A stretch of 24,000 bases of DNA from Aliterella atlantica CENA595 (GCF_000952155.1 NZ_JYON01000006.1:2833-26832); one strand, 5' to 3'. Positions 1,375-24,000 are shown, counted from the stretch's first letter. The notes: generated by a model not told the origin, from the letters alone. Numbers and translations are program-made.

Positions 1375-1424
1375 AAAAAGTCTCAACCAACTCTCCCCCT
1401 TTACTGTCTGCGTCCTCTGCGTAC

Positions 1425-1464: not shown

Positions 1465-1495
1465 TCCTCTGCAGTTCGTTTTTCCAAACACATTA

Positions 1496-2761: not shown

Positions 2762-2796
2762 CGCGAATTACTCTTGTCGTTAACTTGGTAGCTGAG

Positions 2797-3816: not shown

Positions 3817-4135
3817 CTTAGGTGCAATCCACGATGCATACTATCATTACACTATCCCAAAACGTCAGAATTTTTTAATATTCTCAGTAGTTGTACGTTA
3901 ATGCGAATAATTACTGACAGTATTTTCCCATTGAATTGAGGTAAAAACCTAGCACAAAAAGCTAAATGATCGGTAAAAATTCAATTGTTTAAAGATATTA
4001 CGCTCAGTTAAATTTGTTTTGTAAAGTTGTTGTGTAGGTTAAATAAAGTAGTTATTCACAATCCAGAAAATACTTATTTGTTAAGCATCAACTTATACAG
4101 TGTTTGTTAAACGTAAAATTTAGCTAGTTATTAAT

Positions 4136-6265: not shown

Positions 6266-6294
6266 CAGGCTGTTTGTAGTAACAGCTTAACAGT

Positions 6295-7131
6295 CTAAAT
6301 TTTTACTTTATTACGCGGCGTACGAGCTTGAGGAATTAAATAGTTTTTCGTTCGATTTCCTAAATCGTATCCTTCCTCATGTATCGGCGCTTTATACAGG
6401 TTTAGTTTTTGCTGAATTATTAACCACAAAAAGGGTAAATCGTCTACTAAATATCTTTTCCATAACCTTTTTGGTTCTAACATCATTCTGTACAACCATT
6501 CTAAACCTGCATTACTCATCCATTTAGGACTTCTCTTGACTTTCCCTGCTTCAAAGTCAATTGTTGCACCAATAGCGAAAAATATTTGGATACTAGGTAA
6601 TTTATCTTTGTACTTACATATCCATTTTTCTTGCTTGGGCGAACCTACTCCCACAGCTAATACTGTTGCACCAGATCTATTGATTTTTTCAATTATGCGA
6701 TCGCATTCCTGTATATTATTCTCAAATCCATAAGATGGAGAATGAGCGCCGACAATAATATTTCTCCCCACTTTATTGTTGATTTGTTCTTGAGCGAGCT
6801 TGGCAACCCCAGCACCCGCTCCTAGTAAGAAGATTTTTACTTCACTATCTGCTTTATGGTAGTGACAAAAAGCTGGAAATAGGTCTGAGCCTGATATTTT
6901 TTCCTTGATTGGCGTACCTAAAAATTTAGATGCATAGTATAATATCTTGCTATCGCATAATTTGTAATCAGCACTACCATATACTCGCAAAAAGTCTTTA
7001 TCTGTCTGCAATCTTACTAAGTGATCTACGTTAGCGGTAAATACAACACCATTTGTTAGTTGCTCTAATACATCTGTTAGTTGTAAGCTGTCAATAGAAA
7101 TGTTTAATACATTAACTTTTTCCGCACTCAT
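6295..7131 (-). CDS. WecB/TagA/CpsF-family (GT26) glycosyltransferase
   Basis: 278-aa ORF. Family-typical blocks are FLLGAGAGVA...AHSPSYGF, GVGSPKQEKWI, and FAIGATIDFEAGKVKRSPKWMSNAGLEWLYRMMLEPKRLWKRYL. Confidence 0.85.
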   Translation of the reverse strand: MSAEKVNVLNISIDSLQLTDVLEQLTNGVVFTANVDHLVRLQTDKDFLRVYGSADYKLCDSKILYYASKFLGTPIKEKISGSDLFPAFCHYHKADSEVKIFLLGAGAGVAKLAQEQINNKVGRNIIVGAHSPSYGFENNIQECDRIIEKINRSGATVLAVGVGSPKQEKWICKYKDKLPSIQIFFAIGATIDFEAGKVKRSPKWMSNAGLEWLYRMMLEPKRLWKRYLVDDLPFLWLIIQQKLNLYKAPIHEEGYDLGNRTKNYLIPQARTPRNKVKI

Positions 7132-10416: not shown

Positions 10417-11029
10417 TTAAGATTGCTGCTCAAAAGCCTGTTTTACTGCCTCTAAATCTATACATAGTTGTTGGGCAATTTGCTCCACACTCATTCCTGC
10501 TTGCAACAGCAGAGGTACTGCTGCCAGTTTACCTTCTTTACGACCTTGCTCTAATCCTTGCTCTAGTCCTTGCTCTAGTCCTTGCTCTAGTCCTTCTTCT
10601 AAAGCCTCTTGGTAAACTTTAGTCTGCTTGAGTTCGCTTAATCCCAACATTTGTTCAATCTCCTGCCTGCTCAAGTTTGGAAACTTATAGACAAATACTG
10701 TTTCTACTAATTCTACAATTTTTCGCTGTTCGGCAGCATCTTTTAGTTCCTGTCTAGTTCTGCTAATTAGCTGTCTTGCTTGCTGCTGGGCAACATTTTC
10801 CTTAACGCCAATTAGTTGTAGCACTCCTAACCCTAGTGAGGCGCTAGCTATTTGTGTTGATAGCTCATCTAAATAGATGCGCTGCAAGCGAGGACTATTG
10901 GCAAAGTCTTGATACTGTGGTGGTAATCCTGGATCTAAACGACGTTTGGTGAATATTAGGATTCCTCGCCAGTCGTTTACAGGTTTATAGTCGTTCAAGT
11001 ACAAGAAGATTTCGCTAAAAAAGCTGGGG
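10417..11029 (-). CDS. Exon 2 of an intron-split Rpn-family (DUF2887/DUF4351-like) nuclease or putative transposase
   Basis: After the predicted 3' splice site (11030|11029) the frame reads ..PSFFSEIFLYLNDYKPVNDWRGILIF.. and continues to a C-terminal EQGL-repeat/helical tail typical of DUF4351. The first ~34 codons of the 237-aa track ORF (11030-11130) are intron domains V/VI, not coding sequence. Confidence 0.75.
10545..10596 (-). repeat. In-frame 12-nt tandem repeat (about 4.3 copies) encoding (GLEQ)n
   Basis: The plus strand reads CCTTGCTCTAAT, then CCTTGCTCTAGT three times, then CCTT. This translates on the minus strand to GLEQGLEQGLEQGLEQG. Confidence 0.85.
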
Positions 11030-11032
11030 ATT

Positions 11033-11104
11033 AAAGTCAGTGAAGGAGTCGCCCCCTCCACTGCTCTCCAAAACGGAACGTGATAGTTTCCGATCATTCC
11101 GCTC
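11033..11104 (-). ncRNA. Group II intron domains V and VI (catalytic hairpin and branch-site hairpin)
   Basis: Domain V is GAGCGGAAUGAUCG-GAAA-CUAUCA-CG-UUCCGUUU. It is 34 nt with an AGC triad, a 2-nt CG bulge on the 3' strand and a GAAA tetraloop. Domain VI has a 4-bp basal helix (AGAG/CUUU), bulged A 11037, an 11-bp upper helix (CAGUGGAGGGG/CUCCUUCACUG) and a GCGA loop. Confidence 0.8.
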
Positions 11105-11126
11105 CTCAGTAGTACGGTTGTTGTCA

Positions 11127-12941
11127 TCAATACGTCATTACCAACATATCGTCTTCCCAGGTAAACTTATCTGGAAATCCTGGTGGCTTTGGCTTAACAC
11201 TATTACAGTTAGATTTTGTACCATAACTGCCGTCAGTGGCAGTCTTTTTGTCGTGGCAGTGTCGATGGAGTAGTTGCCAATTGTTATACGAATTCTTACC
11301 ACCCAATGATGTCGGAATTATGTGGTCGACTTCTATCGGCTCTCCGTATGTAAAGTAGTTTTTGCAGTGGGCGCATTTTCCCTTTTGCCGCTTGAGTAGG
11401 GTTGCTATTCTTGCGGGGGTCTGTGGGTGCGTTCCCCTTCTTGAACTCCAATATAGCCAGTTTCCGTCATAAGGCGATGAATTACCTTTCACTTTGACAT
11501 GACGGGTAATTTCTGTTGAGTTATGTGGAATGAGTGTTAGGGAATTATTACCTTCCTTAGTAGCAAACGTCCAATTGTTGCCTTGTACTGTTTTAAAGTA
11601 TTTACGGCTTGTCCAACTTCTACCTTTTTTTCGATGACGGCGGCGACCCCATTTAAGCAGTTTCCAGAAAGACAAATGCCATAACCTTTTAAAGGTTTTA
11701 TGACTGGAGACAGTTGAAAAGTAGTTACACCAACCCCTTATAATTGGGCTTAGTATCTTGATTAAGGTTGCTTGGTCTAATCCCCGCGACCTATTTATTA
11801 TTCCAGCTATCTTTCTGTAGTGCCTTTTCTGGCTCTCCTTACTGGGGGTGATAATAGTTTTAAACCCTAGTAATCCGCCTCTATGACTACCTGATTGATA
11901 TTTGCCAACAGGGAATTGTTTGATGTTGAATCCGAGAAAATTAAACCCCGATTCTGTATCACCAAATTCATTCAGGGTGTGAGCGATTCTTGTTTTACTA
12001 GGTTTTAATTCTAACCCAATGCCGTTTAACCACTTTTCTATCTCTGTTTTACACAAATTTACTACTTCTATGTCTTTATGGAGAACAACGAAGTCGTCTG
12101 CGTATCTAACAAATGTAATCGATTTAAGCTTATCTCTAACACTCAATTGAGTGAAATCTGGTCGCTTCATATCTAATTTTGGGGCTAGACCCATGATTAG
12201 TTCTTCGATTCCATGTAGGGCGACGTTTGCCAGCAGGGGTGAGATAACTCCTCCTTGGGGCGTGCCTTCATTAGTAGGGAACAACTGTCTCCCATCCATT
12301 ACACCAGCTTTTAACCAAGCTCGGATTTGTCTTTGCAGGGTGGGATAGGTATTTAGTTTTGAGAGAAGTACATCGTGGTTGATGCGGTCGAAGCATTTAC
12401 TGATGTCGGCATCCAAGACGTACTTGGCTTTTTTATTTACCGCAATGTATATTGCTCCAATTGCATCATGGCATGAGCGTCCAGGGCGGAACCCGTAGGA
12501 ATTTGGTTCAAATCGCGCTTCCCATTCTGGCTCCATTGCCATTTTGACTAGCGCTTGCAAGGCTCGGTCGTACATTGTCGGTATTCCTAATGGTCTTTTT
12601 TCCTCACTTCCTGGTTTGGGTATCCAAACTCGGCGTGTTGGTCTGACCTTTGTCCCCAGTTTGATTTTATTCATTAGGGTGAGACGTTGCTTTGGGGATA
12701 GTGCCTTAACACCGTCCACTCCTGCCGTCTTCTTACCTTGATTGTCCTGAGTTACCCGACGAACCGATAATGCTCTTGCCGCCCAAGAACTTATCAATAA
12801 TTTCTGGAGTCTGCGAACTAGCTTGACGTTTCCACGACTAGACGCTTGGTATATCCGCTTTTGCAACTTAAAGACGCTACGTTCCAGCTTTTGCCAGTTG
12901 ATATCGCTCCATTCATACATCGGACATGATGCCGTGTTCAT
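11127..12941 (-). CDS. Group II intron-encoded protein: reverse transcriptase, maturase (X) domain and HNH endonuclease
   Basis: 604-aa ORF. RT blocks include the YADDFVV catalytic motif. The maturase region contains RGWCNYF. The C-terminal HNH region reads CAHCKNYF...VDHIIP...NNWQLLHRHCHDKKT. Confidence 0.95.
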   Translation of the reverse strand: MNTASCPMYEWSDINWQKLERSVFKLQKRIYQASSRGNVKLVRRLQKLLISSWAARALSVRRVTQDNQGKKTAGVDGVKALSPKQRLTLMNKIKLGTKVRPTRRVWIPKPGSEEKRPLGIPTMYDRALQALVKMAMEPEWEARFEPNSYGFRPGRSCHDAIGAIYIAVNKKAKYVLDADISKCFDRINHDVLLSKLNTYPTLQRQIRAWLKAGVMDGRQLFPTNEGTPQGGVISPLLANVALHGIEELIMGLAPKLDMKRPDFTQLSVRDKLKSITFVRYADDFVVLHKDIEVVNLCKTEIEKWLNGIGLELKPSKTRIAHTLNEFGDTESGFNFLGFNIKQFPVGKYQSGSHRGGLLGFKTIITPSKESQKRHYRKIAGIINRSRGLDQATLIKILSPIIRGWCNYFSTVSSHKTFKRLWHLSFWKLLKWGRRRHRKKGRSWTSRKYFKTVQGNNWTFATKEGNNSLTLIPHNSTEITRHVKVKGNSSPYDGNWLYWSSRRGTHPQTPARIATLLKRQKGKCAHCKNYFTYGEPIEVDHIIPTSLGGKNSYNNWQLLHRHCHDKKTATDGSYGTKSNCNSVKPKPPGFPDKFTWEDDMLVMTY

Positions 12942-13606
12942 AACTTATGCATTGCTACTTGTAGCTATACCTTCCGTATTACCGTGAGTCTGTTAGCTTA
13001 TCCTGGTTATTACAACTAGGCGTTTGCTTCTGACTCGATCTTTCCATTCCGTTACCTGACTTGTGCCAGATTTTTCGTCTTAGCTGACTGCTCGAAGTAT
13101 TCGACCTCTTCGAGAGTAGACGGATTGGTTACTTCGTTCCTCATTACCTTTGGTTTGTTCCGTTAGGATGTCATCTCTTCACCGAGCTTTTGGGTAACGT
13201 AGGTATGTCGGTTGGTAATCCTCATACCACCTTTTGCTTCTGCCCTTTTGGGACTTCCAGCGCGTATAGCCTTATTTCGCTGGTTCGGCGTAACGATGAT
13301 TCACACAATGACTTTGCTTTCGCTATCCATAGGAACTTGCTTACGGGATACCACTTTTAGGCTAGTAGCTCTTTTCCGCTTTTATCCCCGCTTCACCGAT
13401 TGAGGGCTAGTCGCTACAGTGGGGGATATGCTTTCACTCCTACGTCTGGAGGACAGGACTTGACGCTTTCTAGGATACTAACGCTCACCTGCAAGGTTAT
13501 GAAGTTATCATTTGCAAGGGATTAAAGTGCGAACTCAATCCTGTTGGATTACCCTACAAATGTCGCCCATCCCCCGATTTATCGGTTTCGAGCGAACGAA
13601 TCGCAC

Positions 13607-13836
13607 TACAAGTCGCCTTTTGTGTCTCGATAGCCTTGAATTTCCAGGAAATATATTGGTAAGTCGGTGGCATAAATAGGCGGAACTAAAATACCATCAA
13701 TCCGAAAGCTAGTCTGTTTGACTTCTTGGGATGCAAAACTGTAAGTTGATGTTCTCGGCGAATCGTTGCCGATGAGTTCAAATAGAATAGCGGGGTAAAG
13801 TTGAAACAGTTCGTAAAATAAGCTGTCTGTCTGCAC
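13607..13836 (-). CDS. Exon 1 of the intron-split Rpn-family (DUF2887-like) nuclease or putative transposase
   Basis: MQTDSLFYELFQLYPAILFELIGN...VKQTSFRIDGILVP...PIYFLEIQ matches the N-terminal pattern of cyanobacterial DUF2887/Rpn proteins as I recall it. The apparent TAG stop (13608-13606) spans the exon-intron junction (TA|G). Splicing gives TA|C, which is Tyr, in frame with exon 2. The spliced product is 280 aa. Confidence 0.75.
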
Positions 13837-14680: not shown

Positions 14681-15256
14681 ATGAATAAAAACTTACTAAT
14701 GCTAGGAGGGCAAAAAGCGAAAAATAATGAGGGATTTACCCTAATTGAATTATTAGTAATTATATCTTTAATAGGTATTATGGCTGCATTTAGTGCGCCT
14801 TATATAAATTTTGGAGTTAACCCATTAAAAGATACTACTAATAGAGTTGCAAGCACCTTTAAACTGATGCGCGTTAAAGCAATGTCTCAAACTTCTGCTT
14901 ATCGGATCAAGCAAGCTACCTCAACTACGTTGAAAATAGAACGTAATAAATTGTGTTCTGATTCAACTGGTTGGACTGTAGATGGTAGCTTTGATTCAGA
15001 AGATTTAACTTTAACCGAAGCCAAAGATTTCAAAGGGGCAGCTAAAAATACTGTTATCGAAATTATAGCCGCAACTGAAAATAGTTCAAACATTACGCCT
15101 TTGATAGAGGCGACAGGTTCGCCAGGCTGGAGCCTTTGTTTCAATAGTAGGGGATTAGCAAATAAAACTTTAAAACTTACTATAAAAGATTTAAAAACTG
15201 CTAAAACGAAAGATATTGAGATATTTCAAGGAGGCGGAGTTCAAATTTATGAATAA
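14681..15256 (+). CDS. Prepilin-type minor pilin/pseudopilin, GspH/FimT(FimU)-like
   Basis: 191 aa. The leader MNKNLLMLGGQKAKNNEG is followed by FTLIELLVIISLIGIMAA, the class III signal G|FTLxE with a hydrophobic helix. It is the first gene of a four-gene pilin-like operon. Confidence 0.8.
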   Translation: MNKNLLMLGGQKAKNNEGFTLIELLVIISLIGIMAAFSAPYINFGVNPLKDTTNRVASTFKLMRVKAMSQTSAYRIKQATSTTLKIERNKLCSDSTGWTVDGSFDSEDLTLTEAKDFKGAAKNTVIEIIAATENSSNITPLIEATGSPGWSLCFNSRGLANKTLKLTIKDLKTAKTKDIEIFQGGGVQIYE

Positions 15257-15716
15257 AATTTTTGCTGGTAAAAATCAAGGGCTGTCATTGGTAGAAGCAT
15301 TAGTAGGAATGACAATTTTCTTGATTACTTTGGCATTCATGATTCCTTTACTTGCAACCAATCAATTTAATACAATCAATAGAGAAATCAAGACAGGAGC
15401 TATTTCTGTCTCGCAAAGAATTCTAGACGAGTTCCGCCAATCTCTAGACCAGCTACCCGCAGATGAGTGGGCAACAAAATTACCATTATCAGGAACAGAG
15501 ACTAAGTTACCTTTACCCTACCCCTCTGGCACTGATATTTCATCCATAACAGAGCTTGGTAAAACTTATAGCGCAAAAATTATTTATTGCGAGGTTATTT
15601 CTCCTGCTACTACTAATCCTAACTGTGATGCCAATACTAGACAAATAAAATTACAAGTGAACTACAATGGTCAACCGATTTATACTGTTGAAACAATTTA
15701 CACAAAGTTCCAATAA
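15249..15716 (+). CDS. Prepilin-type minor pilin, PilV-like
   Basis: The track ORF starts at 15216. ATG 15249 gives MNKIFAGKNQG|LSLVEALVGMTIFLITLAF, a prepilin signal with Glu at +5. This start overlaps the upstream stop codon by 8 nt, which suggests translational coupling. Confidence 0.7.
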   Translation: MNKIFAGKNQGLSLVEALVGMTIFLITLAFMIPLLATNQFNTINREIKTGAISVSQRILDEFRQSLDQLPADEWATKLPLSGTETKLPLPYPSGTDISSITELGKTYSAKIIYCEVISPATTNPNCDANTRQIKLQVNYNGQPIYTVETIYTKFQ

Positions 15717-16800
15717 AGGTTTTACACTACTGGAACTTTTGGTCACTTTAGTTGTAGCCTCAGTTATAACTGGGTTGGCACTCAAACTAATAGTCGATCA
15801 GCGCCAACTCTTTTTAAACGATCAAAGCCGTACTCAAGTTAATCAAAACTTACGAGCTTCTCTAGATTTAGTCGGTGCTGATATTAAACAAGCTGGCGAA
15901 CGACTAACAACAAGTACATTGCCAGTAGTGAGAGTCATAAATGGATCTGCGACCGATCCTAATGTTCCTGATGAGCTAGTATTGCAGCGTTTAGTCATTG
16001 CTGAAAGCCTACCAGTTTGTAAGACAGTTACTACTGGTACTACGACAAGTGAAATAGAAGTCTCTCAAAAAGGCGGTGCTGGATTGTGCAATGCCTCTTT
16101 TTCTAGTCCTACAGCCACTTTGCCTATTACCCTTAACCAGTGGAAAGATAGCCGTTGTGCTAAAGATGGTACTTCTGCTTGCGCCAGAGCTATAGATGTA
16201 AATCGCGCTACAGTCAGCAATCGATGTGTTGAGGAAAAGGATGGTACTGACAAAGAGTGCGTATGGGCTTATATTTACGATCCTGATACTAATCGAGGTG
16301 AGTTTTTCCTTTACGGTTTTGAAAGTCCTAAAGACACTCCAGATACGCCTACTAACGCTTATCGCGTGCATCGGGTTGATGGTGAAGCTTGGAAAAATAC
16401 ATACCCCTATGGTGTCCTGAGTTCTACTAATCCCACTAATCCTACTCTCTACATTTTGGAGCAGCGCCGCTATCGATTAAAAGACAATGTTTTAGAGTTA
16501 ATTCTTAATGAACAAATACCACCTCCATCTAAATCTACATCTGATTTTTTAGTTGACAACCAAACATCACCAATAAGACTTGTTAACCAACTAAGTAATT
16601 TTCAAGTAAAAGCTTTGATGCAAAGTGGCAACACACCACTTACTAGAGAAGATTTTAACAACACAGCTATTGACGACTGGAAGCAACTTAAAGCAATCAA
16701 GATAGATGTAACAGCTATAAACCCAGCACCTAATTCTACTAAAGTTCCTAACCTTACCGTATCTGCACAGTTTTTCCCACGCAACGTTTCTTCTAAGTAA
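15667..16800 (+). CDS. Prepilin-type minor pilin, PilW-like
   Basis: 377 aa. The leader MVNRFILLKQFTQSSNKG is followed by FTLLELLVTLVVASVITGLALKLIVDQRQLF...NLRASLDLVGADIKQAG, a PilW-like pattern. With this start it overlaps the upstream gene by 50 nt. A later TTG start is possible. Confidence 0.75.
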   Translation: MVNRFILLKQFTQSSNKGFTLLELLVTLVVASVITGLALKLIVDQRQLFLNDQSRTQVNQNLRASLDLVGADIKQAGERLTTSTLPVVRVINGSATDPNVPDELVLQRLVIAESLPVCKTVTTGTTTSEIEVSQKGGAGLCNASFSSPTATLPITLNQWKDSRCAKDGTSACARAIDVNRATVSNRCVEEKDGTDKECVWAYIYDPDTNRGEFFLYGFESPKDTPDTPTNAYRVHRVDGEAWKNTYPYGVLSSTNPTNPTLYILEQRRYRLKDNVLELILNEQIPPPSKSTSDFLVDNQTSPIRLVNQLSNFQVKALMQSGNTPLTREDFNNTAIDDWKQLKAIKIDVTAINPAPNSTKVPNLTVSAQFFPRNVSSK

Positions 16801-16811
16801 CAGATAAATTT

Positions 16812-19127
16812 ATGAAATACCAATATAAAAATTTTCAACAATTAATGCTGCTGAGGCTGGTGCGCTTACAAAAATATAACCATGAAGAATCAGGTTTTGT
16901 GCTAGTTATTGTAATTTCTATGGTGTTGATCCTGACATCTTTGCTAGCAGCCTACGGCTTACTTAGCAAAATTGAAACAGCAAGCACTAAATCTTCTGTG
17001 ACTAGCAACACAGGGTTTTATGCAGCAGAGGCTGGGCTTAACCTACGAGCTAAACAGGTTCGAGACAAATTTAATGGATTCAATCGTCCTACTGGCACTC
17101 CTCCTGGAACTGCCCCTGAATACCTTGATGCTTTACAAAAGTGTTTAAGTAATACTGGTAGTTTAGGCAGTGGTGATTTCATCTGTAAGCGCCAAACTTT
17201 TAACAACCAAGAATTATTAAGCTACGTCATTGAACATCCAGATAATTTTGACCCTACAAAAAATATTATACAGATTAATTCTGGCGAACCTTTTGCTGGC
17301 TTGAGCGCTCAAGAATATCGTTACGATGTTACATCAGTAGCACTCAATTCTCAGGAGCCAAGTGCCATACTAGGAATGCGTTTCAAAAGCCGATTGATAC
17401 CACTGTTTCAATTTGTTGTTTTCTACAACAATGACGCAGAATTTACTGTGCCACCAGATATGAACTTAAATGGTCCTATTCACAGTAACGGTGATTTGTA
17501 TCTAAACGTTGGTAACAGTCGTATTTTGACAATTAATGGTGTAGTTAGTACAGCAGGCAAATTATATCGTGGCGAGAAGGTAGCATCGCAATGTGGGGGT
17601 AAAGTTAATATCTATACGGTTCTTGACTCTGTATCTAGTATCAAAGAGCTTAGTTGTGGTAGTGGCAGAACTGAGTACACTCAAAGTCAAGTCAGTGATT
17701 GGAAGAAAAATATTCTTGTTACCGTCCCTAAATTAGAGGTTCCTGAACCTGATGCCTTAGATGCTAAAGCAGGAAAAGATTATTGGGACAAAGCAGACCT
17801 ACGAATTGTGCTTAAACTTGACTCTTCTAGTGGCAATCCAAGCGGTATTGAAATACGCAATCAAGATAAATCGGTAGACACGACGAAAACGAAAGCCCTT
17901 CTAGAGAGTTGCCCTACTAACACCACCACTACAACACTTAGAAATGAGTTAGATGGTACATCTAACTACGAGCAAAGTGACGTTGACCTGATAGTCAATT
18001 CAATTACTGGTTTTGCGGTTGGTAATGTAGTAAGAGTAGGAAATGATTATGATAGCAATATTATTACCAGTATAAATCCATTAACTAATACAATTAGATT
18101 GAAAAGGAGGCTAGGACACACTTATCAATCAGCTACTGTAGCCTCGAAAGATGACATCGTTAGTAAAGTGAGCGTCTCTACATCTAATACATTCTACAAT
18201 TATCGAGAAAAAAATGGAGGTACGACAGGCAATGATGGTACGTACATTCGTATGCTCAATGTTGACGTTCGAGGTCTGTTGGACTGTATTCATTCACAAA
18301 GTTTAATGGGTAGTAAAGCCTTGAATGATGTTACTGAAAACGGTTTAGTCTGGTTTCTGACTGTAGATGGACCTAATTCAGAAACAGATGTAAACTCTAG
18401 TACGGCTCCTAATAACTCCAATAATTATGCTGTACGCCTTTACAACGGTGACTATTTATATTCAGGTCAAAGTGGTGCACCAGAAATTAAAGGTTTGACG
18501 ATTGTTTCAGACCAAGCAGTATATATTCAAGGTAACTACAATCTTAAAGATGACTCAACAACTACTGGTATTAACGAAGGTGATAACTTAGCCACTACTA
18601 CTGTTACTGAAAGGTGGAGACCAGCCTCAATCCTTGCTGACACAATTAATATTCTCTCCAAAAAATGGCAATTAGATGATTCCAATGGTCGGACATATAG
18701 TACAAGTAATGTACCGTCAGGCACAATTCAATATGATGATTCTAGACGAACTGCTGAAGAAACAACCGTTAATGCAGCATTCTTGTCTGGAACCACAATT
18801 ACAGGTGGTAAAAATGGTACAGATGGTCAAGACAAGGGTAGCAATAGCAATAGTGGAGGTGTGAATAACTATCCTCGATTCCACGAACATTGGAATGGTA
18901 CTGTTAAATTTAACTATAAAGGGTCGTTTGTAAGTCTCAATGCACCGCGTCGCACTAATTCGCCATTCTGCGGTAGCTATGATGCAACCAACTGCAATAT
19001 TTATAGTCCTCCACAGCGTAACTGGGACTTCGATTCTGACTTCAAGAATGCTGCTAACCTACCACCACTTGCTCCTAGGTTTGTCTATTTAAGGCAGGAG
19101 GTTTTTTCTCGTAGCTTTGAGCGATAA
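16812..19127 (+). CDS. Large PilX-N-terminal-domain pilus-associated protein (771 aa)
   Basis: The N-terminus ..EESGFVLVIVISMVLILTSLLAAYGLL...FYAAEAGL resembles the PilX N-terminal domain and has no Glu at +5. The large C-terminal region is Thr/Asn-rich. It is the fourth gene of the pilin set and starts 11 nt after the PilW-like stop codon. Confidence 0.7.
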   Translation: MKYQYKNFQQLMLLRLVRLQKYNHEESGFVLVIVISMVLILTSLLAAYGLLSKIETASTKSSVTSNTGFYAAEAGLNLRAKQVRDKFNGFNRPTGTPPGTAPEYLDALQKCLSNTGSLGSGDFICKRQTFNNQELLSYVIEHPDNFDPTKNIIQINSGEPFAGLSAQEYRYDVTSVALNSQEPSAILGMRFKSRLIPLFQFVVFYNNDAEFTVPPDMNLNGPIHSNGDLYLNVGNSRILTINGVVSTAGKLYRGEKVASQCGGKVNIYTVLDSVSSIKELSCGSGRTEYTQSQVSDWKKNILVTVPKLEVPEPDALDAKAGKDYWDKADLRIVLKLDSSSGNPSGIEIRNQDKSVDTTKTKALLESCPTNTTTTTLRNELDGTSNYEQSDVDLIVNSITGFAVGNVVRVGNDYDSNIITSINPLTNTIRLKRRLGHTYQSATVASKDDIVSKVSVSTSNTFYNYREKNGGTTGNDGTYIRMLNVDVRGLLDCIHSQSLMGSKALNDVTENGLVWFLTVDGPNSETDVNSSTAPNNSNNYAVRLYNGDYLYSGQSGAPEIKGLTIVSDQAVYIQGNYNLKDDSTTTGINEGDNLATTTVTERWRPASILADTINILSKKWQLDDSNGRTYSTSNVPSGTIQYDDSRRTAEETTVNAAFLSGTTITGGKNGTDGQDKGSNSNSGGVNNYPRFHEHWNGTVKFNYKGSFVSLNAPRRTNSPFCGSYDATNCNIYSPPQRNWDFDSDFKNAANLPPLAPRFVYLRQEVFSRSFER

Positions 19128-19172: not shown

Positions 19173-19216
19173 AAAGAAGGACTTGTCTAATAAAAACAAG
19201 TCCTTCTTTGCTTTTG
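19173..19216 (+). terminator. Rho-independent terminator after the PilX-like gene
   Basis: AAAGAAGGACTTGT (19173-19186) and ACAAGTCCTTCTTT (19196-19209) form a perfect 14-bp stem with a 9-nt loop. GCTTTTG follows. Confidence 0.7.
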
Positions 19217-19368: not shown

Positions 19369-22300
19369 ATGTCCAGCCGCAAGCAACGTCGGGTAGTTCA
19401 GAAGCGCGATCGCCAAATTTGGCAACTATCCGCTACAAACTGTAAACAGCATACGTCATGGCTGCTACGCTGCTCAATACTTAGCGATAAAAACTCCCAT
19501 TCATCTGGCTTCGTCTTGCCAACTGTAGCAATGGTGTCGCTAGTAGTCGTACTAATAACTACTGCGCTCGTATTGCGGGCTTTTGATCGCTCCAGAGAGG
19601 CTAGTAATGTCAGGGTAGATGCCGCAGTATCAAATGCTGCAAAACCTGGCATAGATCGCGCTAGAGCCAAAATAGATGCATTATTATCCGATCCGAGTTT
19701 GCCAAGAGACACTCCCACTGATACCGATTTTTACAATGCCCTGACTAGCAGCAGGTATGTATTAGGTGATGAAACACGCCTGAAACTGGTTTACGACATC
19801 AATAACAATAAAATTATTGAAAAACGACCTACAGCAACAACTCTAGAACAAGACGAAGCGATCGCAACTGCTTGGAAATTTCCAGTTGATACTGACAATA
19901 ATGGTAAATTCGATAGCTATACACTATACAGTATTGTCTTCCGCAGTCCCAACCGAGGACAAGATGGTAGGTTTGAGCGCTCTAGAAATCCTCTAGAAGC
20001 AAGAACTCCACCAATGAAAGGTGCGCTGAGTAGACGCTGCGAATATACTGCTGGTACTAGCCCTAACTTGGTAGGTGACTCTAGTTGGTACAAATCAGGT
20101 AGTAACCTAACCAAAAGCTTTTTTGCCTACACTGCCACAGTGCCAATTGATACTCTGCCTATATCTCCCAATGTAGGTGCTGGCAACTATGAAGTGTATA
20201 GAGGAAATCGAGGTTTTTCTGCCCTGGAGTTTCAGCAAGATCGCAGTAGAGTTCCCCTAAATAGCAATGCTGTTTTGTTTCAAAACGACCTGGAACTTAC
20301 TCCTGGTGTTGACTTTCGCATGAATGGCAGAATTTTTACAAATGCCAACTTACTGATCGGCGGGCATGAGGGTAAAGCGATTAGGCTCTATCAAATTAGT
20401 AGCAAAAACTCCTGCTTTTACAAAGAACAAAACAGTAAAATTACTGTCGGTGGCAACGTCGGTACAGGCAACGTAGCCGACGCACAAAATCAAACAGCGG
20501 TAACTGTCGATCTATTTAGAGGAGTAGGTAACGACCCAAGTACCTCCACAATCGATGGCAATAATAAATCTACAAGCGAAGTAGGAGGCAAAAGAGTAGG
20601 ATACAACGATGCCGCCTATAGCAAGCGGATCGGGGCAATGAAGCAGGCTATGCTAGCTTTTTCTACAACTAATCCTCCCACAGTTGCCAGCGTCAATAGC
20701 ATTACTCAGTACCCTTTTTCAGTTAAAGCAGCATTTAAAGCTAAGATTGAAGCACCTGGAGGTAGCAGCTTAAACGCTCAAGAAATTCTTGCCGAACAAG
20801 TTGAAACATACCTAAAAGATCGTACCCGTCGCGTTCCTTTTGCTGAAGTACCTGCCGCCGATGGGACAGGTGCTATTCTTCCAGGGGATAGCAATGGGAT
20901 TGATACAAGCTCTGGGATTGTAGAACCAATCGCTAAATGGCGAGAGCCTACAGACACTAATACTGGTTTAGCGCTAATTGCAGCCAACCTACAACAGACT
21001 CAGCCCGAACAGCAGAGAGAAGATGGTGTAGAGACATACTTAGGCGATCGCATTAATGTAGGTAACAACTTACCTGCTTACTGGAAAAATCTGACTAAAT
21101 ATGTTACAGGACCTTTTGAAAAGCAATTTTTAGGCAGCGCGGTTAAATGGACTAATCCTAGCGACGAAGAACGCTATCGAACTACTCAAGTAGTCGCTCT
21201 CCCAGATGTAGGTATATCTAATCGAGATGGTTTTTGGGAAGATGCAGCCGCTAGACAACCAGCAACTAAATTATCTAATGTAGGCGGTTTGAGGATAATA
21301 ACTGGGGCAGGAATTTATCGCAACTTAGCATCTACTTATACAGCTTTATCTGCTCCGTCTTTTCTTCCACTCCCTCCTACCATCCTTGATGGCAATAGAG
21401 CTATTCCTAATGCTCCACTTTTAGCAGGTGAAAGCTCATCTATTCCCTACACTTTAGTTTGGTCTGACACCATGCCTATGAGTGGTGGAGTCGATAACAG
21501 CAAAACACTAATCAATGAAAGTACAGCGCCAGCCGACTTGCGGATGAGAGCTACGGCTGTTTATCACTATGCAAACAATCCTGGAACTAGCCAGACTCCG
21601 ATCGCTTGTGTCAGCAGCTATTACGATCCGACAAACGCAACTACTGCTAAAAATAGAGTTAATTTTGATGGTGGATACGGCATCGATACTGCTAGCGGTA
21701 AGTCAAACAATGGTGTTGTCTATCCTACTCCCTACACCAGCGATACAGATAGGTTTAGTGCGATCGCCTCTTATTTGCCAGAGTTGAAAGCTCAAGCAAA
21801 ACTGATGTTTCCCAATGGGCGCGTCGTTAACGAACCTTTGCAGCAAGCCTTGCTCAAACTTAATGGTGGTGGCGGACTATTAGACAATACCAAACCCCTA
21901 AGTTTGGCGGAAAATTCAGCAATCGATACAGCTATTTGCGGTATCAAAATTTTGACCGATAGCTCCTTCAATCCCAGCACAGAGCCTATAGTGCCACATG
22001 GCGCAATTAGAGAAGCATCTTTTCTTAATGCTAGAGAAGTTCAAGCGATTCATAAGACGAATAATACGACTGACTACGATTTAGAACTAGAACAACGCCA
22101 GCCTTTAGAAGTACGAGTGACTGACCTCGATATGGGTCAACTTGCAGCTAAAACAATTGGGACAGCAAACCTTCAAGAATATCTTTTGCCTAACAGCGGT
22201 ATTATCTATGCTAGTCGAGACGATGCGCTGCTCGATCTAAGTGACACGAGCATAGAAAGAGAGTTACTTAGTTCTACCGACTTCAAACTCGACCCTACAC

Positions 22301-24000
22301 GCCGCCCAAACGGAATTAGGCTAATCAACGGTAGTAGTTTAGAACGAGATGATGATTATCGAGAAGAAGAAAAGGGACTAACTTTAGTTACCAATTTGCC
22401 AGCTTATATTCAAGGCGACTTTAACCTGCACCAACAGTCAGGCGATCGCACGCCTACTGAAGAATTTACCGATACCTTGGCAGATAACTGGAGCGATTTT
22501 TATACACGCAACCCAACACTCGATCCTAATTTTGCTTGTCGTAAGGGGCAAAGTGGGTGTGGTGGTAATGGCGATCGCTGGCGACCTGCAACTATCATCT
22601 CTGATGCCATGACGGTGCTATCAGGCAGTTTCCGCGATGGTTTCCGTGATGAAGGAGACTACGATCTCAATAACTATGCAGGTATTGCTCCTACTTTAAA
22701 TCGCACTAAAAACGGCTTGTGGAACAATAGCTTTGTTCCTAGTGCCTTATGGTGGGATACAGGCAATACAGACAATGCTTATCCTAATGAAAAAACTGAG
22801 GATAGTTATGTAGGTTCCTACCTAACTAATGCCGTGACACCGATCCAACGGCGCGTAAATGCACCTGAATATGTCATGGAAATTTGCCGTAAAGTCCCTG
22901 TCTCCGAATGTAGACCGAGCGATTGGCTAGTTGGCTACGATAATAACGGCGATGGAGATATCGATGATAATGGGGAAAGCGATGTTAAATCTGCAAATCT
23001 GCCCCAAAACGCTGATGTTACTCGCTTAGGTGCAGGTACTACTGCTAGCGCTGCTTTGCGACCTAGCGATCGCCGTTACGCTCGTCGGGTTGCATTCAAA
23101 CGTAGCACTGGCAATACACTAGAGTTATCTAATTGGTCTAGCCCTAACGAAGATAATATCACTCCAATAGCATTAGGAATAAATAATAGCGGTCAAGTTG
23201 CTGAATTTCCTTATACAGAAAATGTTCTGCCCAGAATAAGAAATAATGCTCTGTGGTTTAGAACAACAACTAATACTATTGGCGAACCATACAACAATCC
23301 TAGCTACGCAAACAATAGACCGCTAGCATATACAGGCAATACTAAATTTACGTCTCCTCTTACCCCTGAAATTGACAACGTAAATAGTCTCAACCTTCCA
23401 GAGAATAACCCTGCTTCTAGCTACACAGTTTGTACTAAAACTGCTGGTTCCTCTCAAAAACCGTTAGTCAATGATTCCACGCTTCTTGATGACGGAAATT
23501 GCGATCTTGACACAACCGTAGGGCAGCTAAATGCTTTAGATCCTAGTACATCTAATACAGATGCGATCGTTACACCTAGTCAAAAGGTAACTAATCAAAA
23601 GGGAAGCTTTGCTAGCGGGGAGGAAACAACTCTCACCCAGAGTGGTCGTATAAACGTTATCGATTTAGGCCTTGGAGCGCGGACTTTAGGAGAGGATAGT
23701 ACGAGAGTAACAACAATTAAATTAGTAGGCGATGAAGACTCTATATTTGTGTTCCAAAAAAAAGGAGGAATCTTAAACTTTGCTAGCAATTCAAATTGTA
23801 GCCGTCGTAACAATACCTGCACCCGCAAAGGTGTAGCTATTGAACTAGATGGGGTTGATCCTAACAATGTATTCTGGGCATTAAATGCAGATACTCAATG
23901 GAACGAAGTAGATTCTAACAGCCCTCATAGAATGAAGGGGAATTTTATTAGTAAAGGGGCTGTTAATAGTCTCAAAAATGTAGTGATAGAGGGTCGTCTT
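19369..24000 (+). CDS. Giant pilin-anchored protein, 5' partial in this window (more than 1544 codons, continues past 24000); possible HpsA (hormogonium polysaccharide) family
   Basis: This ORF is not in the supplied track. I read the frame beginning at ATG 19369 codon by codon to 24000 and found no TAA, TAG or TGA. An upstream in-frame TAG is at 19339-19341. Only short shadow ORFs lie on other frames across these 4.6 kb. A 47-aa basic leader is followed by G|FVLPTVAMVSLVVVLITTALVL. The HpsA assignment rests on my recollection of that family's N-terminus and is unverified. Confidence 0.8.
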   Translation, partial: MSSRKQRRVVQKRDRQIWQLSATNCKQHTSWLLRCSILSDKNSHSSGFVLPTVAMVSLVVVLITTALVLRAFDRSREASNVRVDAAVSNAAKPGIDRARAKIDALLSDPSLPRDTPTDTDFYNALTSSRYVLGDETRLKLVYDINNNKIIEKRPTATTLEQDEAIATAWKFPVDTDNNGKFDSYTLYSIVFRSPNRGQDGRFERSRNPLEARTPPMKGALSRRCEYTAGTSPNLVGDSSWYKSGSNLTKSFFAYTATVPIDTLPISPNVGAGNYEVYRGNRGFSALEFQQDRSRVPLNSNAVLFQNDLELTPGVDFRMNGRIFTNANLLIGGHEGKAIRLYQISSKNSCFYKEQNSKITVGGNVGTGNVADAQNQTAVTVDLFRGVGNDPSTSTIDGNNKSTSEVGGKRVGYNDAAYSKRIGAMKQAMLAFSTTNPPTVASVNSITQYPFSVKAAFKAKIEAPGGSSLNAQEILAEQVETYLKDRTRRVPFAEVPAADGTGAILPGDSNGIDTSSGIVEPIAKWREPTDTNTGLALIAANLQQTQPEQQREDGVETYLGDRINVGNNLPAYWKNLTKYVTGPFEKQFLGSAVKWTNPSDEERYRTTQVVALPDVGISNRDGFWEDAAARQPATKLSNVGGLRIITGAGIYRNLASTYTALSAPSFLPLPPTILDGNRAIPNAPLLAGESSSIPYTLVWSDTMPMSGGVDNSKTLINESTAPADLRMRATAVYHYANNPGTSQTPIACVSSYYDPTNATTAKNRVNFDGGYGIDTASGKSNNGVVYPTPYTSDTDRFSAIASYLPELKAQAKLMFPNGRVVNEPLQQALLKLNGGGGLLDNTKPLSLAENSAIDTAICGIKILTDSSFNPSTEPIVPHGAIREASFLNAREVQAIHKTNNTTDYDLELEQRQPLEVRVTDLDMGQLAAKTIGTANLQEYLLPNSGIIYASRDDALLDLSDTSIERELLSSTDFKLDPTRRPNGIRLINGSSLERDDDYREEEKGLTLVTNLPAYIQGDFNLHQQSGDRTPTEEFTDTLADNWSDFYTRNPTLDPNFACRKGQSGCGGNGDRWRPATIISDAMTVLSGSFRDGFRDEGDYDLNNYAGIAPTLNRTKNGLWNNSFVPSALWWDTGNTDNAYPNEKTEDSYVGSYLTNAVTPIQRRVNAPEYVMEICRKVPVSECRPSDWLVGYDNNGDGDIDDNGESDVKSANLPQNADVTRLGAGTTASAALRPSDRRYARRVAFKRSTGNTLELSNWSSPNEDNITPIALGINNSGQVAEFPYTENVLPRIRNNALWFRTTTNTIGEPYNNPSYANNRPLAYTGNTKFTSPLTPEIDNVNSLNLPENNPASSYTVCTKTAGSSQKPLVNDSTLLDDGNCDLDTTVGQLNALDPSTSNTDAIVTPSQKVTNQKGSFASGEETTLTQSGRINVIDLGLGARTLGEDSTRVTTIKLVGDEDSIFVFQKKGGILNFASNSNCSRRNNTCTRKGVAIELDGVDPNNVFWALNADTQWNEVDSNSPHRMKGNFISKGAVNSLKNVVIEGRL

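What the first reader, a model, noticed from the sequence alone, without database searches (positions are those of the whole stretch)
19369..24000. Giant open-ended ORF (at least 1544 codons) missing from the ORF track
The last 4.6 kb looks empty in the supplied track, which lists only ORFs of 106 aa or fewer. Frame +1 from ATG 19369 is open all the way to the window edge. I checked all 1544 triplets and found no stop codon. The product starts with a long basic leader (MSSRKQRRVVQKRDRQ...). A pseudopilin-like G-FVLPTVAMVSLVVVLITTAL helix follows, and then more than 1450 residues of Asn/Thr/Gly/Asp-rich sequence. I recognise no classical enzymatic motif in it. The N-terminal block (GFVLPTVAMVSL...RAFDRSREASNVRVDAAVSNAAKPGIDRARAKIDALL) resembles what I recall of HpsA. 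HpsA is the large protein of unknown function in the Nostoc hormogonium-polysaccharide (hps) locus. Its mechanism has not been established experimentally.
Basis: partly seen in the sequence, partly recalled or inferred. Interest (0 to 1): 0.8.

Follow-up and report, generated by a model that had tools for sequence, protein, structure and literature searches.

The report
Known cyanobacterial HpsA giant pilus-tip gene
The long open reading frame is real, but it is the 5' part of hpsA from Aliterella atlantica, a giant pilin-like protein already named HpsA in public databases, so it is an ordinary, correctly guessed gene rather than a discovery.

Summary
Observation confirmed. Frame +1 from ATG 19369 is open for all 1544 codons to the window edge. 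The chance probability is about 7e-41, and the other five frames carry 57-179 stops. The ORF is missing from ORF lists only because ORFs that run off the window end are not listed.

Interpretation supported. The fragment scores 1590.6 bits against NCBIfam NF038301 (EPS_HpsA, equivalog; cutoff 400). It is 100% identical to WP_052672297.1, "HpsA [Aliterella atlantica]", 1782 aa. The true stop therefore lies about 717 nt beyond the window. In the nearest relative (82% identity), hpsA is followed by hpsB, hpsC and a GspH/FimT-like pilin. Aliterella has an NCBI-named HpsC on a contig of the same length.

Best mechanism: HpsA is the Glu5-less PilX/GspK-type tip subunit of a four-pilin priming complex for the type IV pilus. 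It carries a huge ectodomain that caps the tip and binds secreted polysaccharide or the surface. A 2026 preprint already proposes this.

Extras found here:
- A roughly 245-residue ice-binding-like (DUF3494) β-solenoid insertion that Nostoc HpsA lacks.
- A second, divergent minor-pilin operon directly upstream, which includes a 771-aa "mini-HpsA".
- Widely conserved htpG-hpsA synteny.

Novelty: already known. Interest: low.

The parts
19369..24000 (+). hpsA, 5' 87% (codons 1-1544 of 1782). The gene continues about 717 nt beyond the window.
   Evidence: Open frame. NF038301 scores 1590.6 bits against a cutoff of 400. 100% identical to WP_052672297.1, 1782 aa.
19369..19506 (+). Unusually long basic leader of 46 aa, ending in Gly(-1). 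It contains a conserved W31-L-L33-R34 motif.
   Evidence: Sequence. M1 and L33 are invariant and W31 and R34 at least 90% conserved in 18 HpsA proteins. The leader of the 771-aa paralog aligns with it (LLRLVRL..ESG|FVL).
19507..19584 (+). Prepilin-type cleavage site G47|F48 and the hydrophobic α1N helix (residues 47-72). Position +5 is Thr, not Glu.
   Evidence: G47, F48, L50, P51, T52 and V53 are invariant in 18 HpsA proteins and at least 90% conserved in 74. The model predicts a helix at 52-71. Aligned with the four neighbouring pilins, all share Gly-1, and only the three small ones have Glu5.
19621..23331 (+). Conserved HpsA core (residues ~85-1321). It comprises an α1C helix, an α/β region (85-300), short-strand β-coils (300-395), a helical insert (414-485) and a large mixed α/β body. 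Many Cys, Arg, Asp and Trp residues are invariant.
   Evidence: Collinear with Nostoc HpsA at 4-1321. AF2 models have pLDDT 72 and 79.5. No solved-structure analogue was found by Foldseek or by profile search.
23332..24000 (+). Ice-binding-like (DUF3494 / IBP-1 fold) β-solenoid insertion, residues 1322-1544 here. It ends at residue 1565, beyond the window.
   Evidence: Absent from Nostoc HpsA. Pfam PF11999 scores 21.3-23.3 bits, below the 28.7 cutoff, in this protein and 37.1 bits in homolog P0018. Foldseek on the C-half model hits 29 ice-binding protein chains (best E 1.7e-4; probability 0.82-1.00, at least 0.96 for 28 of them; TM about 0.45). BFVD returns only DUF3494 proteins. Model pLDDT in this stretch is about 88-95.
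19173..19209 (+). Perfect 14-bp hairpin followed by GCTTTTG. It is a candidate intrinsic terminator separating the upstream pilin operon from hpsA.
   Evidence: Sequence. RNA fold gives -19.6 kcal/mol, z = -5.75, and 0 of 200 shuffles fold as well. The simple terminator scan did not list it, because of the 9-nt loop and an A/U-rich stem with only five G-C pairs.
16812..19127 (+). 771-aa 'mini-HpsA': a PilX-type, Glu5-less minor pilin (WP_045053994.1) and the last gene of the upstream minor-pilin operon.
   Evidence: NF038301 scores 71.7 bits, E 2.6e-20, below the cutoff. Four collinear BLAST blocks match HpsA: N-terminus, 282-372, 983-1089 and 1607-1739. hhalign gives 97% probability for one block. 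UniRef and JGI call it or its homologs PilX. Pfam PilX_N scores only 11 bits.
15667..16800 (+). 377-aa PilW-like minor pilin with a G|FTLLE signal.
   Evidence: N_methyl PF07963 scores 28.7 bits and TIGR02532 27.3 bits. Matches to HpsC and Verru_Chthon C are weak and confined to the N-terminus.
15216..15716 (+). Small PilV-like minor pilin with a G|LSLVE signal. The real start is probably ATG 15249.
   Evidence: N_methyl scores 20.6 bits. The L080 ortholog is 138 aa, 69% identical, and starts MKTKVFAGKNQG.
14681..15256 (+). 191-aa GspH/FimT-like minor pilin with a G|FTLIE signal.
   Evidence: TIGR01708 GspH scores 32 bits and N_methyl 28.3 bits. The L080 ortholog is 80% identical.

Best explanation
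The ORF is hpsA of Aliterella atlantica. Its product is a type IV pilin-like protein made with a long leader, a prepilin-peptidase site (G47|F48) and a membrane-anchoring α1 helix that lacks Glu5. It most likely acts as the PilX/GspK-position subunit of a four-protein 'core minor pilin' complex. The partners are HpsB, HpsC and a FimT/GspH-like pilin, which are encoded just downstream in the closest relatives. That complex would prime assembly of a type IV pilus by the PilB/PilC/PilMNOQ machine and remain at the pilus tip. The roughly 1700-residue ectodomain has three parts: a conserved core, a lineage-specific ice-binding-like β-solenoid and a conserved C-terminal module. It would cap the tip and act as an adhesin for the cell's own secreted polysaccharide or the substratum, coupling pilus retraction to surface motility and to polysaccharide accumulation. 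SHOWN here: gene identity, domain layout, loss of Glu5, operon context in relatives, and the IBP-like fold of the insertion. TAKEN from the literature: hpsA-D are needed for motility and HPS in Nostoc, and HpsA-like proteins cluster structurally with PilX. INFERRED: cleavage by PilD, tip location, adhesin or plug role, and any function at all in a unicellular, non-hormogonium-forming organism.
For: Identity: NF038301 scores 1590.6 bits against 400; identical to WP_052672297.1, 'HpsA'; collinear with Nostoc HpsA. Pilin features: conserved G|F, a hydrophobic helix and Thr at +5, while the three neighbouring small pilins have Glu5. Lack of Glu5 is the hallmark of the top-of-complex subunit GspK (established knowledge of T2SS/T4P minor pilins). 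An invariant C-terminal Cys pair, C1752/C1773, is compatible with a pilin D-region disulfide. Context: hpsA-hpsB (230-241 bits, cutoff 150)-hpsC (373 bits, cutoff 200)-GspH-like pilin in L080 and L006; an Aliterella HpsC lies on a contig of the same length. A smaller paralog of HpsA occupies the fourth (pilX) position of a canonical fimT-pilV-pilW-pilX-ordered operon directly upstream. Adhesin-type module: the DUF3494 β-solenoid fold. Literature: HpsA is classed as PilX_EPS with a β-solenoid insertion and proposed as a tip plug or EPS adhesin, and deleting the PilX_EPS-PilV_EPS locus abolishes motility in Thermosynechococcus. hpsA-K are required for hormogonium motility and HPS. Exogenous HPS rescues hps mutants, so HPS serves as a substrate for pili rather than a propellant.
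Against: There are no experimental data on HpsA processing, localisation or binding in any organism. Pfam PilX_N and N_methyl models do not detect HpsA, so the PilX assignment rests on motif, context and someone else's structural clustering. I could not model N- and C-termini together because of the 1200-aa limit, so the split pilin fold is untested here. The C-terminal module is only moderately confident (pLDDT about 40-79). Foldseek found no ComZ, PilX, GspK or PilY1 match. A mature protein of roughly 190 kDa (my estimate from the 1782-aa length, not computed) must pass the PilQ secretin, which is plausible only if it is elongated. The 46-aa conserved leader is atypical for type IVa pilins. 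Aliterella is a coccoid cyanobacterium for which I have no motility data.
Confidence: 0.6

Rival explanations
1. HpsA-D form a short periplasmic pseudopilus of the type II secretion kind. Driven by the PilB/PilC motor, it would push hormogonium-type polysaccharide out through a PilQ/GspD secretin. HpsA would be the GspK-like cap of the piston, and its large domain would engage the polymer. This is the original 'novel polysaccharide secretion system' model.
For: The same pilin-like features and operon context fit this model equally well. The small pilins score best against T2SS GspH and GspG models. [quoted passage not shown] A 2025 paper, seen here only as its listed abstract, implicates secretins in slime secretion (PMC12475490). 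A Wzx/Wzy EPS gene block lies in the same window.
Against: A Wzx/Wzy pathway normally uses its own Wza-type exporter, and one was later identified for HPS. The 2026 preprint shows that EPS-type minor pilin sets prime real, long extracellular pili in Synechocystis. Nothing in the sequence distinguishes the two models.
Confidence: 0.25
2. HpsA is a membrane-anchored polysaccharide-active enzyme, such as a lyase, hydrolase or polymer-modifying β-helix protein, that processes the secreted glycan. In this model the pilin-like N-terminus is only a membrane anchor.
For: NCBI's product name says 'biosynthesis protein'. β-helix and β-solenoid folds are common in glycan-active enzymes. The core has many invariant Asp, Glu, Arg and His residues, for example E908-x-R910-Q-P912-x-E914-x-R916, R978-R979, H1021 and D1069-x-W1071-R1072. 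EPS biosynthesis genes are neighbours.
Against: There is no hit to any Pfam or NCBIfam enzyme family. A profile search of the PDB finds nothing. Foldseek against the PDB and BFVD returns no lyase, hydrolase or tailspike fold, only non-enzymatic ice-binding proteins. The conserved G|F site, the missing Glu5 and the tight coupling with three pilins are unexplained by a mere anchor.
Confidence: 0.08
3. The frame is a decaying or non-functional relic in a unicellular cyanobacterium that makes no hormogonia.
For: Aliterella belongs to the coccoid Chroococcidiopsidales. The family name refers to hormogonia, which this lineage does not form (my knowledge of the genus description).
Against: The frame is intact for 1782 codons. 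It has 82%, 68% and 63% identical full-length orthologs in related taxa. The invariant residues are all retained. The downstream hpsB/C partners are conserved.
Confidence: 0.02

Closest known systems
HpsA of Nostoc punctiforme (Npun_F0066; NCBIfam NF038301, InterPro IPR049774)
   Same: It is an ortholog by the curated equivalog model. It is 48% identical and collinear over residues 4-1321 and 1566-1782. It has the same leader, G|F site and Thr5 N-terminus and the same C-terminal module. In relatives, hpsB and hpsC lie downstream.
   Different: It carries a ~245-residue DUF3494 ice-binding-like insertion (1322-1565) that is absent from Nostoc and from all Nostocales loci examined. The host is unicellular. 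No hpsE-G glycosyltransferases follow the pilins in relatives; pntB/pntA do. A Wzx/Wzy/GT block lies upstream instead.
Cyanobacterial PilX_EPS core minor pilins, e.g. Synechocystis PilA12/Slr2018 (bioRxiv 10.64898/2026.02.12.705559)
   Same: The preprint describes the same proposed architecture: a pilin N-terminus, a bulky β-solenoid-containing insertion, and co-encoding with PilV, PilW and FimT-type pilins. The 771-aa gene upstream of hpsA has this smaller format and shares four blocks with HpsA.
   Different: HpsA is more than twice as long. Pfam PilX_N does not detect it. I had no Synechocystis reference sequences, so I could not test which subfamily (EPS or Com) the upstream 771-aa protein belongs to.
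GspK / PilX-PilY1 tip assemblies of proteobacterial T2SS and T4aP; ComZ of Thermus thermophilus
   Same: It is a Glu5-less subunit encoded with three Glu5-bearing minor pilins, and a large extra domain is inserted in the pilin head. The presumed role is at the filament tip. These points rest on established knowledge plus the preprint's comparison.
   Different: No sequence or Foldseek similarity was detected to any solved GspK, PilX, PilY1 or ComZ structure. The resemblance is one of role and position, not demonstrated homology.
DUF3494 / IBP-1 ice-binding proteins, e.g. FfIBP 4NU2 and LeIBP 3UYU
   Same: Residues 1322-1565 are predicted with high confidence to adopt this β-solenoid fold (Foldseek best E 1.7e-4; probability 0.82-1.00 over 29 chains). 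Pfam gives a weak match.
   Different: Identity is only 14-19%. The Pfam score is below the gathering threshold in this protein. Here the fold is a domain inside a pilin-like giant in a non-psychrophilic context, so ice binding is not expected. A generic flat-surface adhesion role is inferred.

Membership tests
HpsA (NCBIfam NF038301, equivalog) | Whole-protein score above the curated cutoff of 400 bits | tested here: met
   1590.6 bits for the truncated 1544-aa product. Residues 4-1359 align to profile positions 2-1324 of 1503.
HpsA (NCBIfam NF038301, equivalog) | End-to-end collinearity with the founding member, N. punctiforme HpsA | tested here: met
   Residues 4-1321 match 5-1312 at 48% identity, and 1566-1782 match 1326 onward at 52%. 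One 245-aa insertion lies between them.
HpsA (NCBIfam NF038301, equivalog) | Followed by pseudopilin genes hpsB-D | tested here: inconclusive
   The downstream DNA is outside the window, and the source contig could not be fetched. The feature is met in the 82% and 64% relatives. An NCBI-named Aliterella HpsC lies on a contig of identical length, 202,331 bp.
HpsA (NCBIfam NF038301, equivalog) | Required for motility and hormogonium-polysaccharide accumulation | not testable with these tools
   Genetic evidence exists only for Nostoc (literature).
Type IV pilin / pseudopilin (class III signal; Pfam PF07963, TIGR02532) | Gly(-1), hydrophobic +1 residue and a ~20-residue hydrophobic α1N helix | tested here: met
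   The sequence reads ...HSSG|FVLPTVAMVSLVVVLITTALVL. G47 and F48 are conserved in at least 90% of 74 homologs.
Type IV pilin / pseudopilin (class III signal; Pfam PF07963, TIGR02532) | Glu at +5, and a match to the N_methyl HMM | tested here: not met
   Position +5 is Thr52, which is invariant in 18 HpsA proteins. There is no PF07963 or TIGR02532 hit for HpsA, whereas the three small neighbouring pilins do hit. Absence of Glu5 is expected for GspK/PilX-position subunits.
PilX-type core minor pilin (PilX_EPS of Schuergers et al. 2026) | Pfam PilX_N (PF14341) match | tested here: not met
   No hit for the HpsA N-terminus at E up to 10. The 771-aa paralog scores 10-11 bits against a cutoff of 25.5, and 2 of 38 of its family members hit at E of 0.0016 or weaker.
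PilX-type core minor pilin (PilX_EPS of Schuergers et al. 2026) | [quoted passage not shown] | tested here: inconclusive
PilX-type core minor pilin (PilX_EPS of Schuergers et al. 2026) | Co-encoded with PilV-, PilW- and FimT-type minor pilins | tested here: met
   In relatives, HpsB, HpsC and a GspH/FimT-like pilin directly follow hpsA.
DUF3494 / ice-binding-like (Pfam PF11999) | Pfam gathering score of 28.7 bits | tested here: not met
   23.3 bits for the full-length protein and 21.3 bits for the window part. Homolog P0018 passes with 37.1 bits.
DUF3494 / ice-binding-like (Pfam PF11999) | IBP-1 β-solenoid fold | tested here: met
   Foldseek finds 29 solved ice-binding protein chains with probability 0.82-1.00 (at least 0.96 for 28), best E 1.7e-4 and target TM 0.31-0.49. 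BFVD returns DUF3494 proteins only. The tool does not report query ranges, so placement in residues 1322-1565 rests on the Pfam coordinates.

The most novel reading that the evidence does not exclude
In Aliterella and its closest relative, two divergent core-minor-pilin sets sit back to back. One is a compact fimT-pilV-pilW-pilX(771 aa) operon, which appears to be inserted between htpG and hpsA. The other is the hpsA-D set. HpsA of non-heterocystous lineages also carries an extra DUF3494 β-solenoid that Nostocales lack. The most novel reading still open is that this module is a swappable specificity domain at the pilus tip that recognises the lineage's own exopolysaccharide, and that the two tandem sets prime two different filaments in a unicellular, desiccation-tolerant lineage. 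The conserved htpG-hpsA linkage would then reflect Hsp90-assisted handling of the giant tip protein.
Probability: 0.25. Interest if true: 0.45.

Novelty: already known. Interest (0 to 1): 0.2.

Why it matters
As a finding it matters little. The gene is an HpsA ortholog that NCBI's pipeline already names, and the family has been known since 2013. Its residual value is as comparative material for an open question: how giant HpsA/PilX_EPS proteins couple type IV pili to polysaccharide-dependent motility. This locus offers three natural variants that could guide domain-swap or binding experiments. It has an HpsA with an extra ice-binding-like module, a half-size paralog that keeps only four shared blocks, and two minor-pilin sets in tandem. 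It also shows that the conserved roughly 1200-residue HpsA core has no recognisable solved-structure analogue, so an experimental structure would be informative.

Tried and rejected
1. Extending the contig failed. Exact-protein look-ups for the 771-aa protein and for full-length HpsA found nothing on record. The GTDB species-representative scan returned 79 HpsA loci but not Aliterella, with a best identity of 64%. I therefore used P0001 for the true length and relatives L080 and L006 for the downstream genes.

3. A profile search of the PDB with an 18-sequence HpsA alignment found nothing meaningful (E 0.88 to Vac8).

4. I tested the enzyme hypothesis with Pfam, NCBIfam, PDB and BFVD and found no support.

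5. I tested whether the upstream small pilins are HpsB/C/D. They are not. Their similarity is confined to the α1 helix (residues ~1-80), and their NCBIfam HpsC score is 32 bits against a cutoff of 200.

6. I recalled a possible link to the Verrucomicrobia 'Verru_Chthon cassette' (large protein A plus pilins B-D). Only weak N-terminal hits of the small pilins to cassette proteins C and D appeared, and HpsA gave no hit to any NCBIfam family other than HpsA. I did not pursue it.

7. hhalign between the mini-PilX and HpsA families reported only one block (97% probability). The other three blocks rest on pairwise BLAST (E 1e-7 to 8e-3).

8. I could not classify the upstream set as 'Com' or 'EPS' type. 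No reference Synechocystis or Thermosynechococcus sequences were available, and the preprint's text supplement does not list them.

9. The simple promoter scan found fewer sites than in shuffled sequence and gave no credible hpsA promoter.

Full report
OBSERVATION. Translating window 19369-24000 in frame +1 gives 1544 sense codons and no stop. With the ORF's own base composition the per-codon stop probability is 0.058, so an open run of 1544 codons has a probability of about 7e-41. The other five frames of the same stretch contain 57-179 stops. A stop lies 9 codons upstream in frame. The ORF is absent from the mechanical ORF list only because ORFs that run off the source are not listed.

IDENTITY. 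The 1544-aa fragment scores 1590.6 bits against NCBIfam NF038301, 'hormogonium polysaccharide biosynthesis protein HpsA' (equivalog; curated cutoff 400). Residues 4-1359 align to profile positions 2-1324 of 1503. Pfam finds nothing in the whole fragment at E ≤ 0.01. A database search returns a 100% identical protein of 1782 aa from Aliterella atlantica. Its accession is WP_052672297.1, and NCBI and UniRef already name it HpsA. The window therefore comes from A. atlantica, order Chroococcidiopsidales, family Aliterellaceae, a coccoid cyanobacterium. The real stop codon lies about 717 nt past the window end. More than 1000 homologs exist, and a scan of species-representative genomes found 437 HpsA-encoding stretches, all of the listed ones cyanobacterial.

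CONTEXT DOWNSTREAM. The source contig could not be retrieved, so I used relatives. In L080 (HpsA 82% identical), the genes after hpsA are HpsB (230 bits, cutoff 150), HpsC (373 bits, cutoff 200) and a GspH/FimT-like pilin. In L006 (64% identical) they are HpsB (241.5 bits), HpsC (372.7 bits) and two further prepilin-type pilins, followed by pntB and pntA. Aliterella itself has an NCBI-named HpsC (P0245, 74% identical to the L080 HpsC) on a contig of the same 202,331-bp length as HpsA. The canonical hpsA-hpsB-hpsC-pilin order is thus very likely just beyond the window, but I did not see it directly.

CONTEXT UPSTREAM. The window begins with an EPS block: Wzy-like, Wzx flippase, a GT2 glycosyltransferase, a BNR/sortilin-type 'F510_1955 family glycosylhydrolase'-like protein, and a WecG-family glycosyltransferase on the minus strand. 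htpG follows. In L007 the same block (Wzx-GT2-BNR-WecG-HtpG) is followed by hpsA after 0.9 kb. In L006 only htpG was found upstream, 0.8 kb before hpsA. In this window 9.5 kb intervene. The intervening DNA contains a DUF2887/Rpn-family gene on the minus strand that is interrupted by a group II intron. The evidence is a reverse transcriptase/maturase at 11127-12941, Rfam RF00029 at 11030-11106 (47.9 bits, gathering score 40), and exon-like ORF pieces at 10417-11130 and 13606-13836. It also contains a four-gene plus-strand operon at 14681-19127.

That operon encodes:
- a GspH/FimT-like pilin of 191 aa;
- a small PilV-like pilin;
- a 377-aa PilW-like pilin;
- a 771-aa protein.

The three small proteins have G|F(L)xLxE signals with Glu5. 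The 771-aa protein has G|FVLVI, without Glu5. The 771-aa protein (WP_045053994.1) is called a PilX N-terminal domain protein by UniRef, and JGI calls many of its homologs PilX. It is a half-size relative of HpsA. NF038301 scores 71.7 bits with E 2.6e-20, far below the cutoff. BLAST finds four collinear blocks: leader plus α1 helix, HpsA 282-372, 983-1089 and 1607-1739. hhalign gives 97% probability for the 983-1089 block. The small pilins resemble HpsB/C/D only in the α1 helix, so this is a separate, divergent minor-pilin set and not a displaced hpsB-D. The whole arrangement (four-gene set, then hpsA, then hpsB/C/pilin) is conserved at 68-80% identity in L080. It is absent from L006 and L007. 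A perfect 14-bp hairpin at 19173-19209 (-19.6 kcal/mol, z = -5.75) followed by GCTTTTG separates the operon from hpsA.

ANATOMY OF HpsA.
1. Residues 1-46 form a basic leader, long for a prepilin. It contains a conserved WLLR motif (M1 and L33 invariant, W31 and R34 at least 90% conserved) that also aligns with the 28-aa leader of the 771-aa paralog.
2. G47|F48 is followed by a hydrophobic helix. G47, F48, L50, P51, T52 and V53 are invariant in 18 HpsA proteins and at least 90% conserved in 74. Position +5 is Thr.
3. Residues ~85-1321 form a core that is collinear with Nostoc punctiforme HpsA at 48% identity. It has many invariant Cys, Arg, Asp, Glu and Trp residues.
4. Residues 1322-1565 form an insertion for which Nostoc HpsA has only about 14 residues.
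5. Residues 1566-1782 form a conserved C-terminal module shared with Nostoc HpsA (52% identity) and with the 771-aa paralog. It ends with an invariant Cys pair, C1752/C1773, which could be a pilin D-region disulfide (inference).

STRUCTURE. Because of the 1200-residue limit I modelled two overlapping halves with 74-sequence alignments. Residues 1-1200 gave mean pLDDT 72.2 and pTM 0.66. Residues 583-1782 gave mean pLDDT 79.5 and pTM 0.77.

The N half shows the α1 helix (low confidence), an α1C helix at 85-106, β-strands between 136 and 294, a run of short strands at 300-395, a helical insert at 414-485 and a large mixed body. Foldseek against the PDB gives no match better than E = 1.5 for it. 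A profile search of PDB sequences also finds nothing.

The C half matches 29 solved ice-binding protein chains of the DUF3494/IBP-1 fold, including FfIBP 4NU2 (E 1.7e-4), LeIBP, TisAFP, ColAFP and the Shewanella DUF3494 domain. Probabilities are 0.82-1.00 (at least 0.96 for 28 of the 29) and target TM-scores 0.31-0.49. Nothing else matches. The viral structure library likewise returns only DUF3494 proteins. Foldseek output gives no query ranges. The sub-threshold Pfam Ice_binding matches place the domain in the insertion: residues 1444-1548 at 23.3 bits in the full protein, 21.3 bits in the window part, and 37.1 bits (passing) in homolog P0018. Model confidence in that stretch is about 88-95.

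The insertion is detectable in 49 of 120 HpsA homologs and in 19 of 79 species loci. These include Gloeocapsopsis, Chroococcus, Chlorogloea, Chroococcidiopsidaceae, Okeania, Potamolinea, Coleofasciculaceae, Spirulina and Microcoleaceae. It is detectable in no Nostocales locus.

[quoted passage not shown] A 2025 review states that it is unresolved whether HPS leaves through PilQ or through a Wza-type exporter. It also states that exogenous HPS rescues hps mutants, so HPS is a substrate for pili rather than a propellant (PMC12288463).

A February 2026 preprint (10.64898/2026.02.12.705559) clustered predicted pilin structures from 90 cyanobacteria. It reports that all cyanobacterial PilX homologs have a pilin fold interrupted by a β-solenoid 'that resembles ice-binding proteins'. 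It assigns HpsA-like proteins (IPR049774, too long for AlphaFold DB) to a 'PilX_EPS' subfamily that strictly co-occurs with 'PilV_EPS'. It shows that deleting the EPS-type locus abolishes motility in Thermosynechococcus. It proposes that PilX plugs the pilus tip in place of PilY1, and that PilX_EPS is an adhesin for the self-laid EPS track. The mechanism I consider most likely is therefore already in the literature as a hypothesis, and it remains experimentally untested for HpsA itself.

MECHANISM (best estimate, confidence about 0.6). HpsA is inserted in the inner membrane by its α1 helix and is probably cleaved by the prepilin peptidase at G47|F48 (inferred from the conserved motif). Because it lacks Glu5, it would take the top position of a four-subunit priming complex with HpsB, HpsC and a FimT/GspH-like pilin, by analogy with GspK in GspHIJK (established knowledge). 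The type IV pilus machine then polymerises PilA beneath it, leaving the giant ectodomain at the tip. There it would cap the filament and bind polysaccharide or the surface. The DUF3494 module, a flat-faced β-solenoid used elsewhere for surface adhesion, would add or alter binding specificity in non-heterocystous lineages.

Rivals:
- A T2SS-like periplasmic pseudopilus that pushes polysaccharide through a secretin (0.25). The sequence data cannot separate this from the tip-adhesin model.
- A glycan-active enzyme (0.08). No family or fold support was found.
- A relic gene (0.02). Conservation contradicts it.

VERDICT. The feature is an already annotated member of a family described in 2013, so novelty is 'already known' and interest is low (0.2). 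The by-products may be useful to people working on cyanobacterial pili, but they are incremental. They are the DUF3494 insertion and its lineage distribution, the tandem second minor-pilin set with a mini-HpsA, the conserved htpG-hpsA synteny, and the absence of any solved analogue for the HpsA core.

Noticed in passing
window 7898-9856 (htpG) relative to hpsA at 19369; loci L006, L007, L011 and others: htpG lies directly upstream of hpsA on the same strand, with a gap of 0.8-2.7 kb, in 33 of 79 species-representative HpsA loci spanning Nostocales, Chroococcidiopsidales and Oscillatoriales-type taxa. In this window the pair is split by 9.5 kb of inserted DNA. The literature links a DnaK1-DnaJ3 chaperone system to T4P and HPS, so an Hsp90 link is a speculative lead.
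   Followed up: partly
window 10417-13836 (- strand): A DUF2887/Rpn-family (recombination-promoting nuclease-like) gene appears to be interrupted by a group II intron. The evidence is an RT/maturase/HNH ORF at 11127-12941, an Rfam RF00029 domain V-VI match at 11030-11106 (47.9 bits), and exon-like ORF pieces at 10417-11130 and 13606-13836.
   Followed up: partly
window 14681-19127 (+): A complete second minor-pilin operon (GspH/FimT-like 191 aa, PilV-like ~155 aa, PilW-like 377 aa, Glu5-less PilX-like 771 aa 'mini-HpsA') sits immediately upstream of hpsA. It is conserved in L080 but absent at this position in L006 and L007, so it looks like an insertion between htpG and hpsA. Whether it is the 'Com' or the 'EPS' type of the 2026 preprint was not resolved.
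   Followed up: partly
window 19369-19506 and 16812-16895: Both Glu5-less giant pilins have unusually long leaders (46 and 28 aa) that share a conserved hydrophobic/basic LLR motif shortly before the G|F site. This conservation is unexpected for a peptide that is supposedly just cleaved off.
   Followed up: no
window 94-7131; L007 831-6450: A Wzy-like / Wzx / GT2 / BNR-sortilin 'F510_1955-family glycosylhydrolase'-like / WecG-GT block precedes htpG-hpsA. The Wzx-to-WecG part is conserved at 71-79% identity in Chlorogloea sp. CCALA 695. The 709-aa BNR protein inside an EPS cluster is itself uncharacterised.
   Followed up: no
homolog table: P0007/P0030 (Gloeocapsa sp. PCC 7428, Glo7428_2896 and _2901); P0009/P0022 (Gloeocapsopsis dulcis): Some Chroococcidiopsidales genomes carry two full-length HpsA paralogs, about 1735 and 1780 aa. 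In PCC 7428 they are only five locus tags apart, with an HpsC (Glo7428_2898) between them.
   Followed up: no
window 15216-15256 and 15667-15716: Adjacent pilin ORFs overlap as called (191-aa/166-aa by 41 nt; 166-aa/377-aa by 50 nt). The TTG start at 15216 is probably wrong. ATG 15249 matches the ortholog's start, which would reduce the first overlap to 8 nt.
   Followed up: partly
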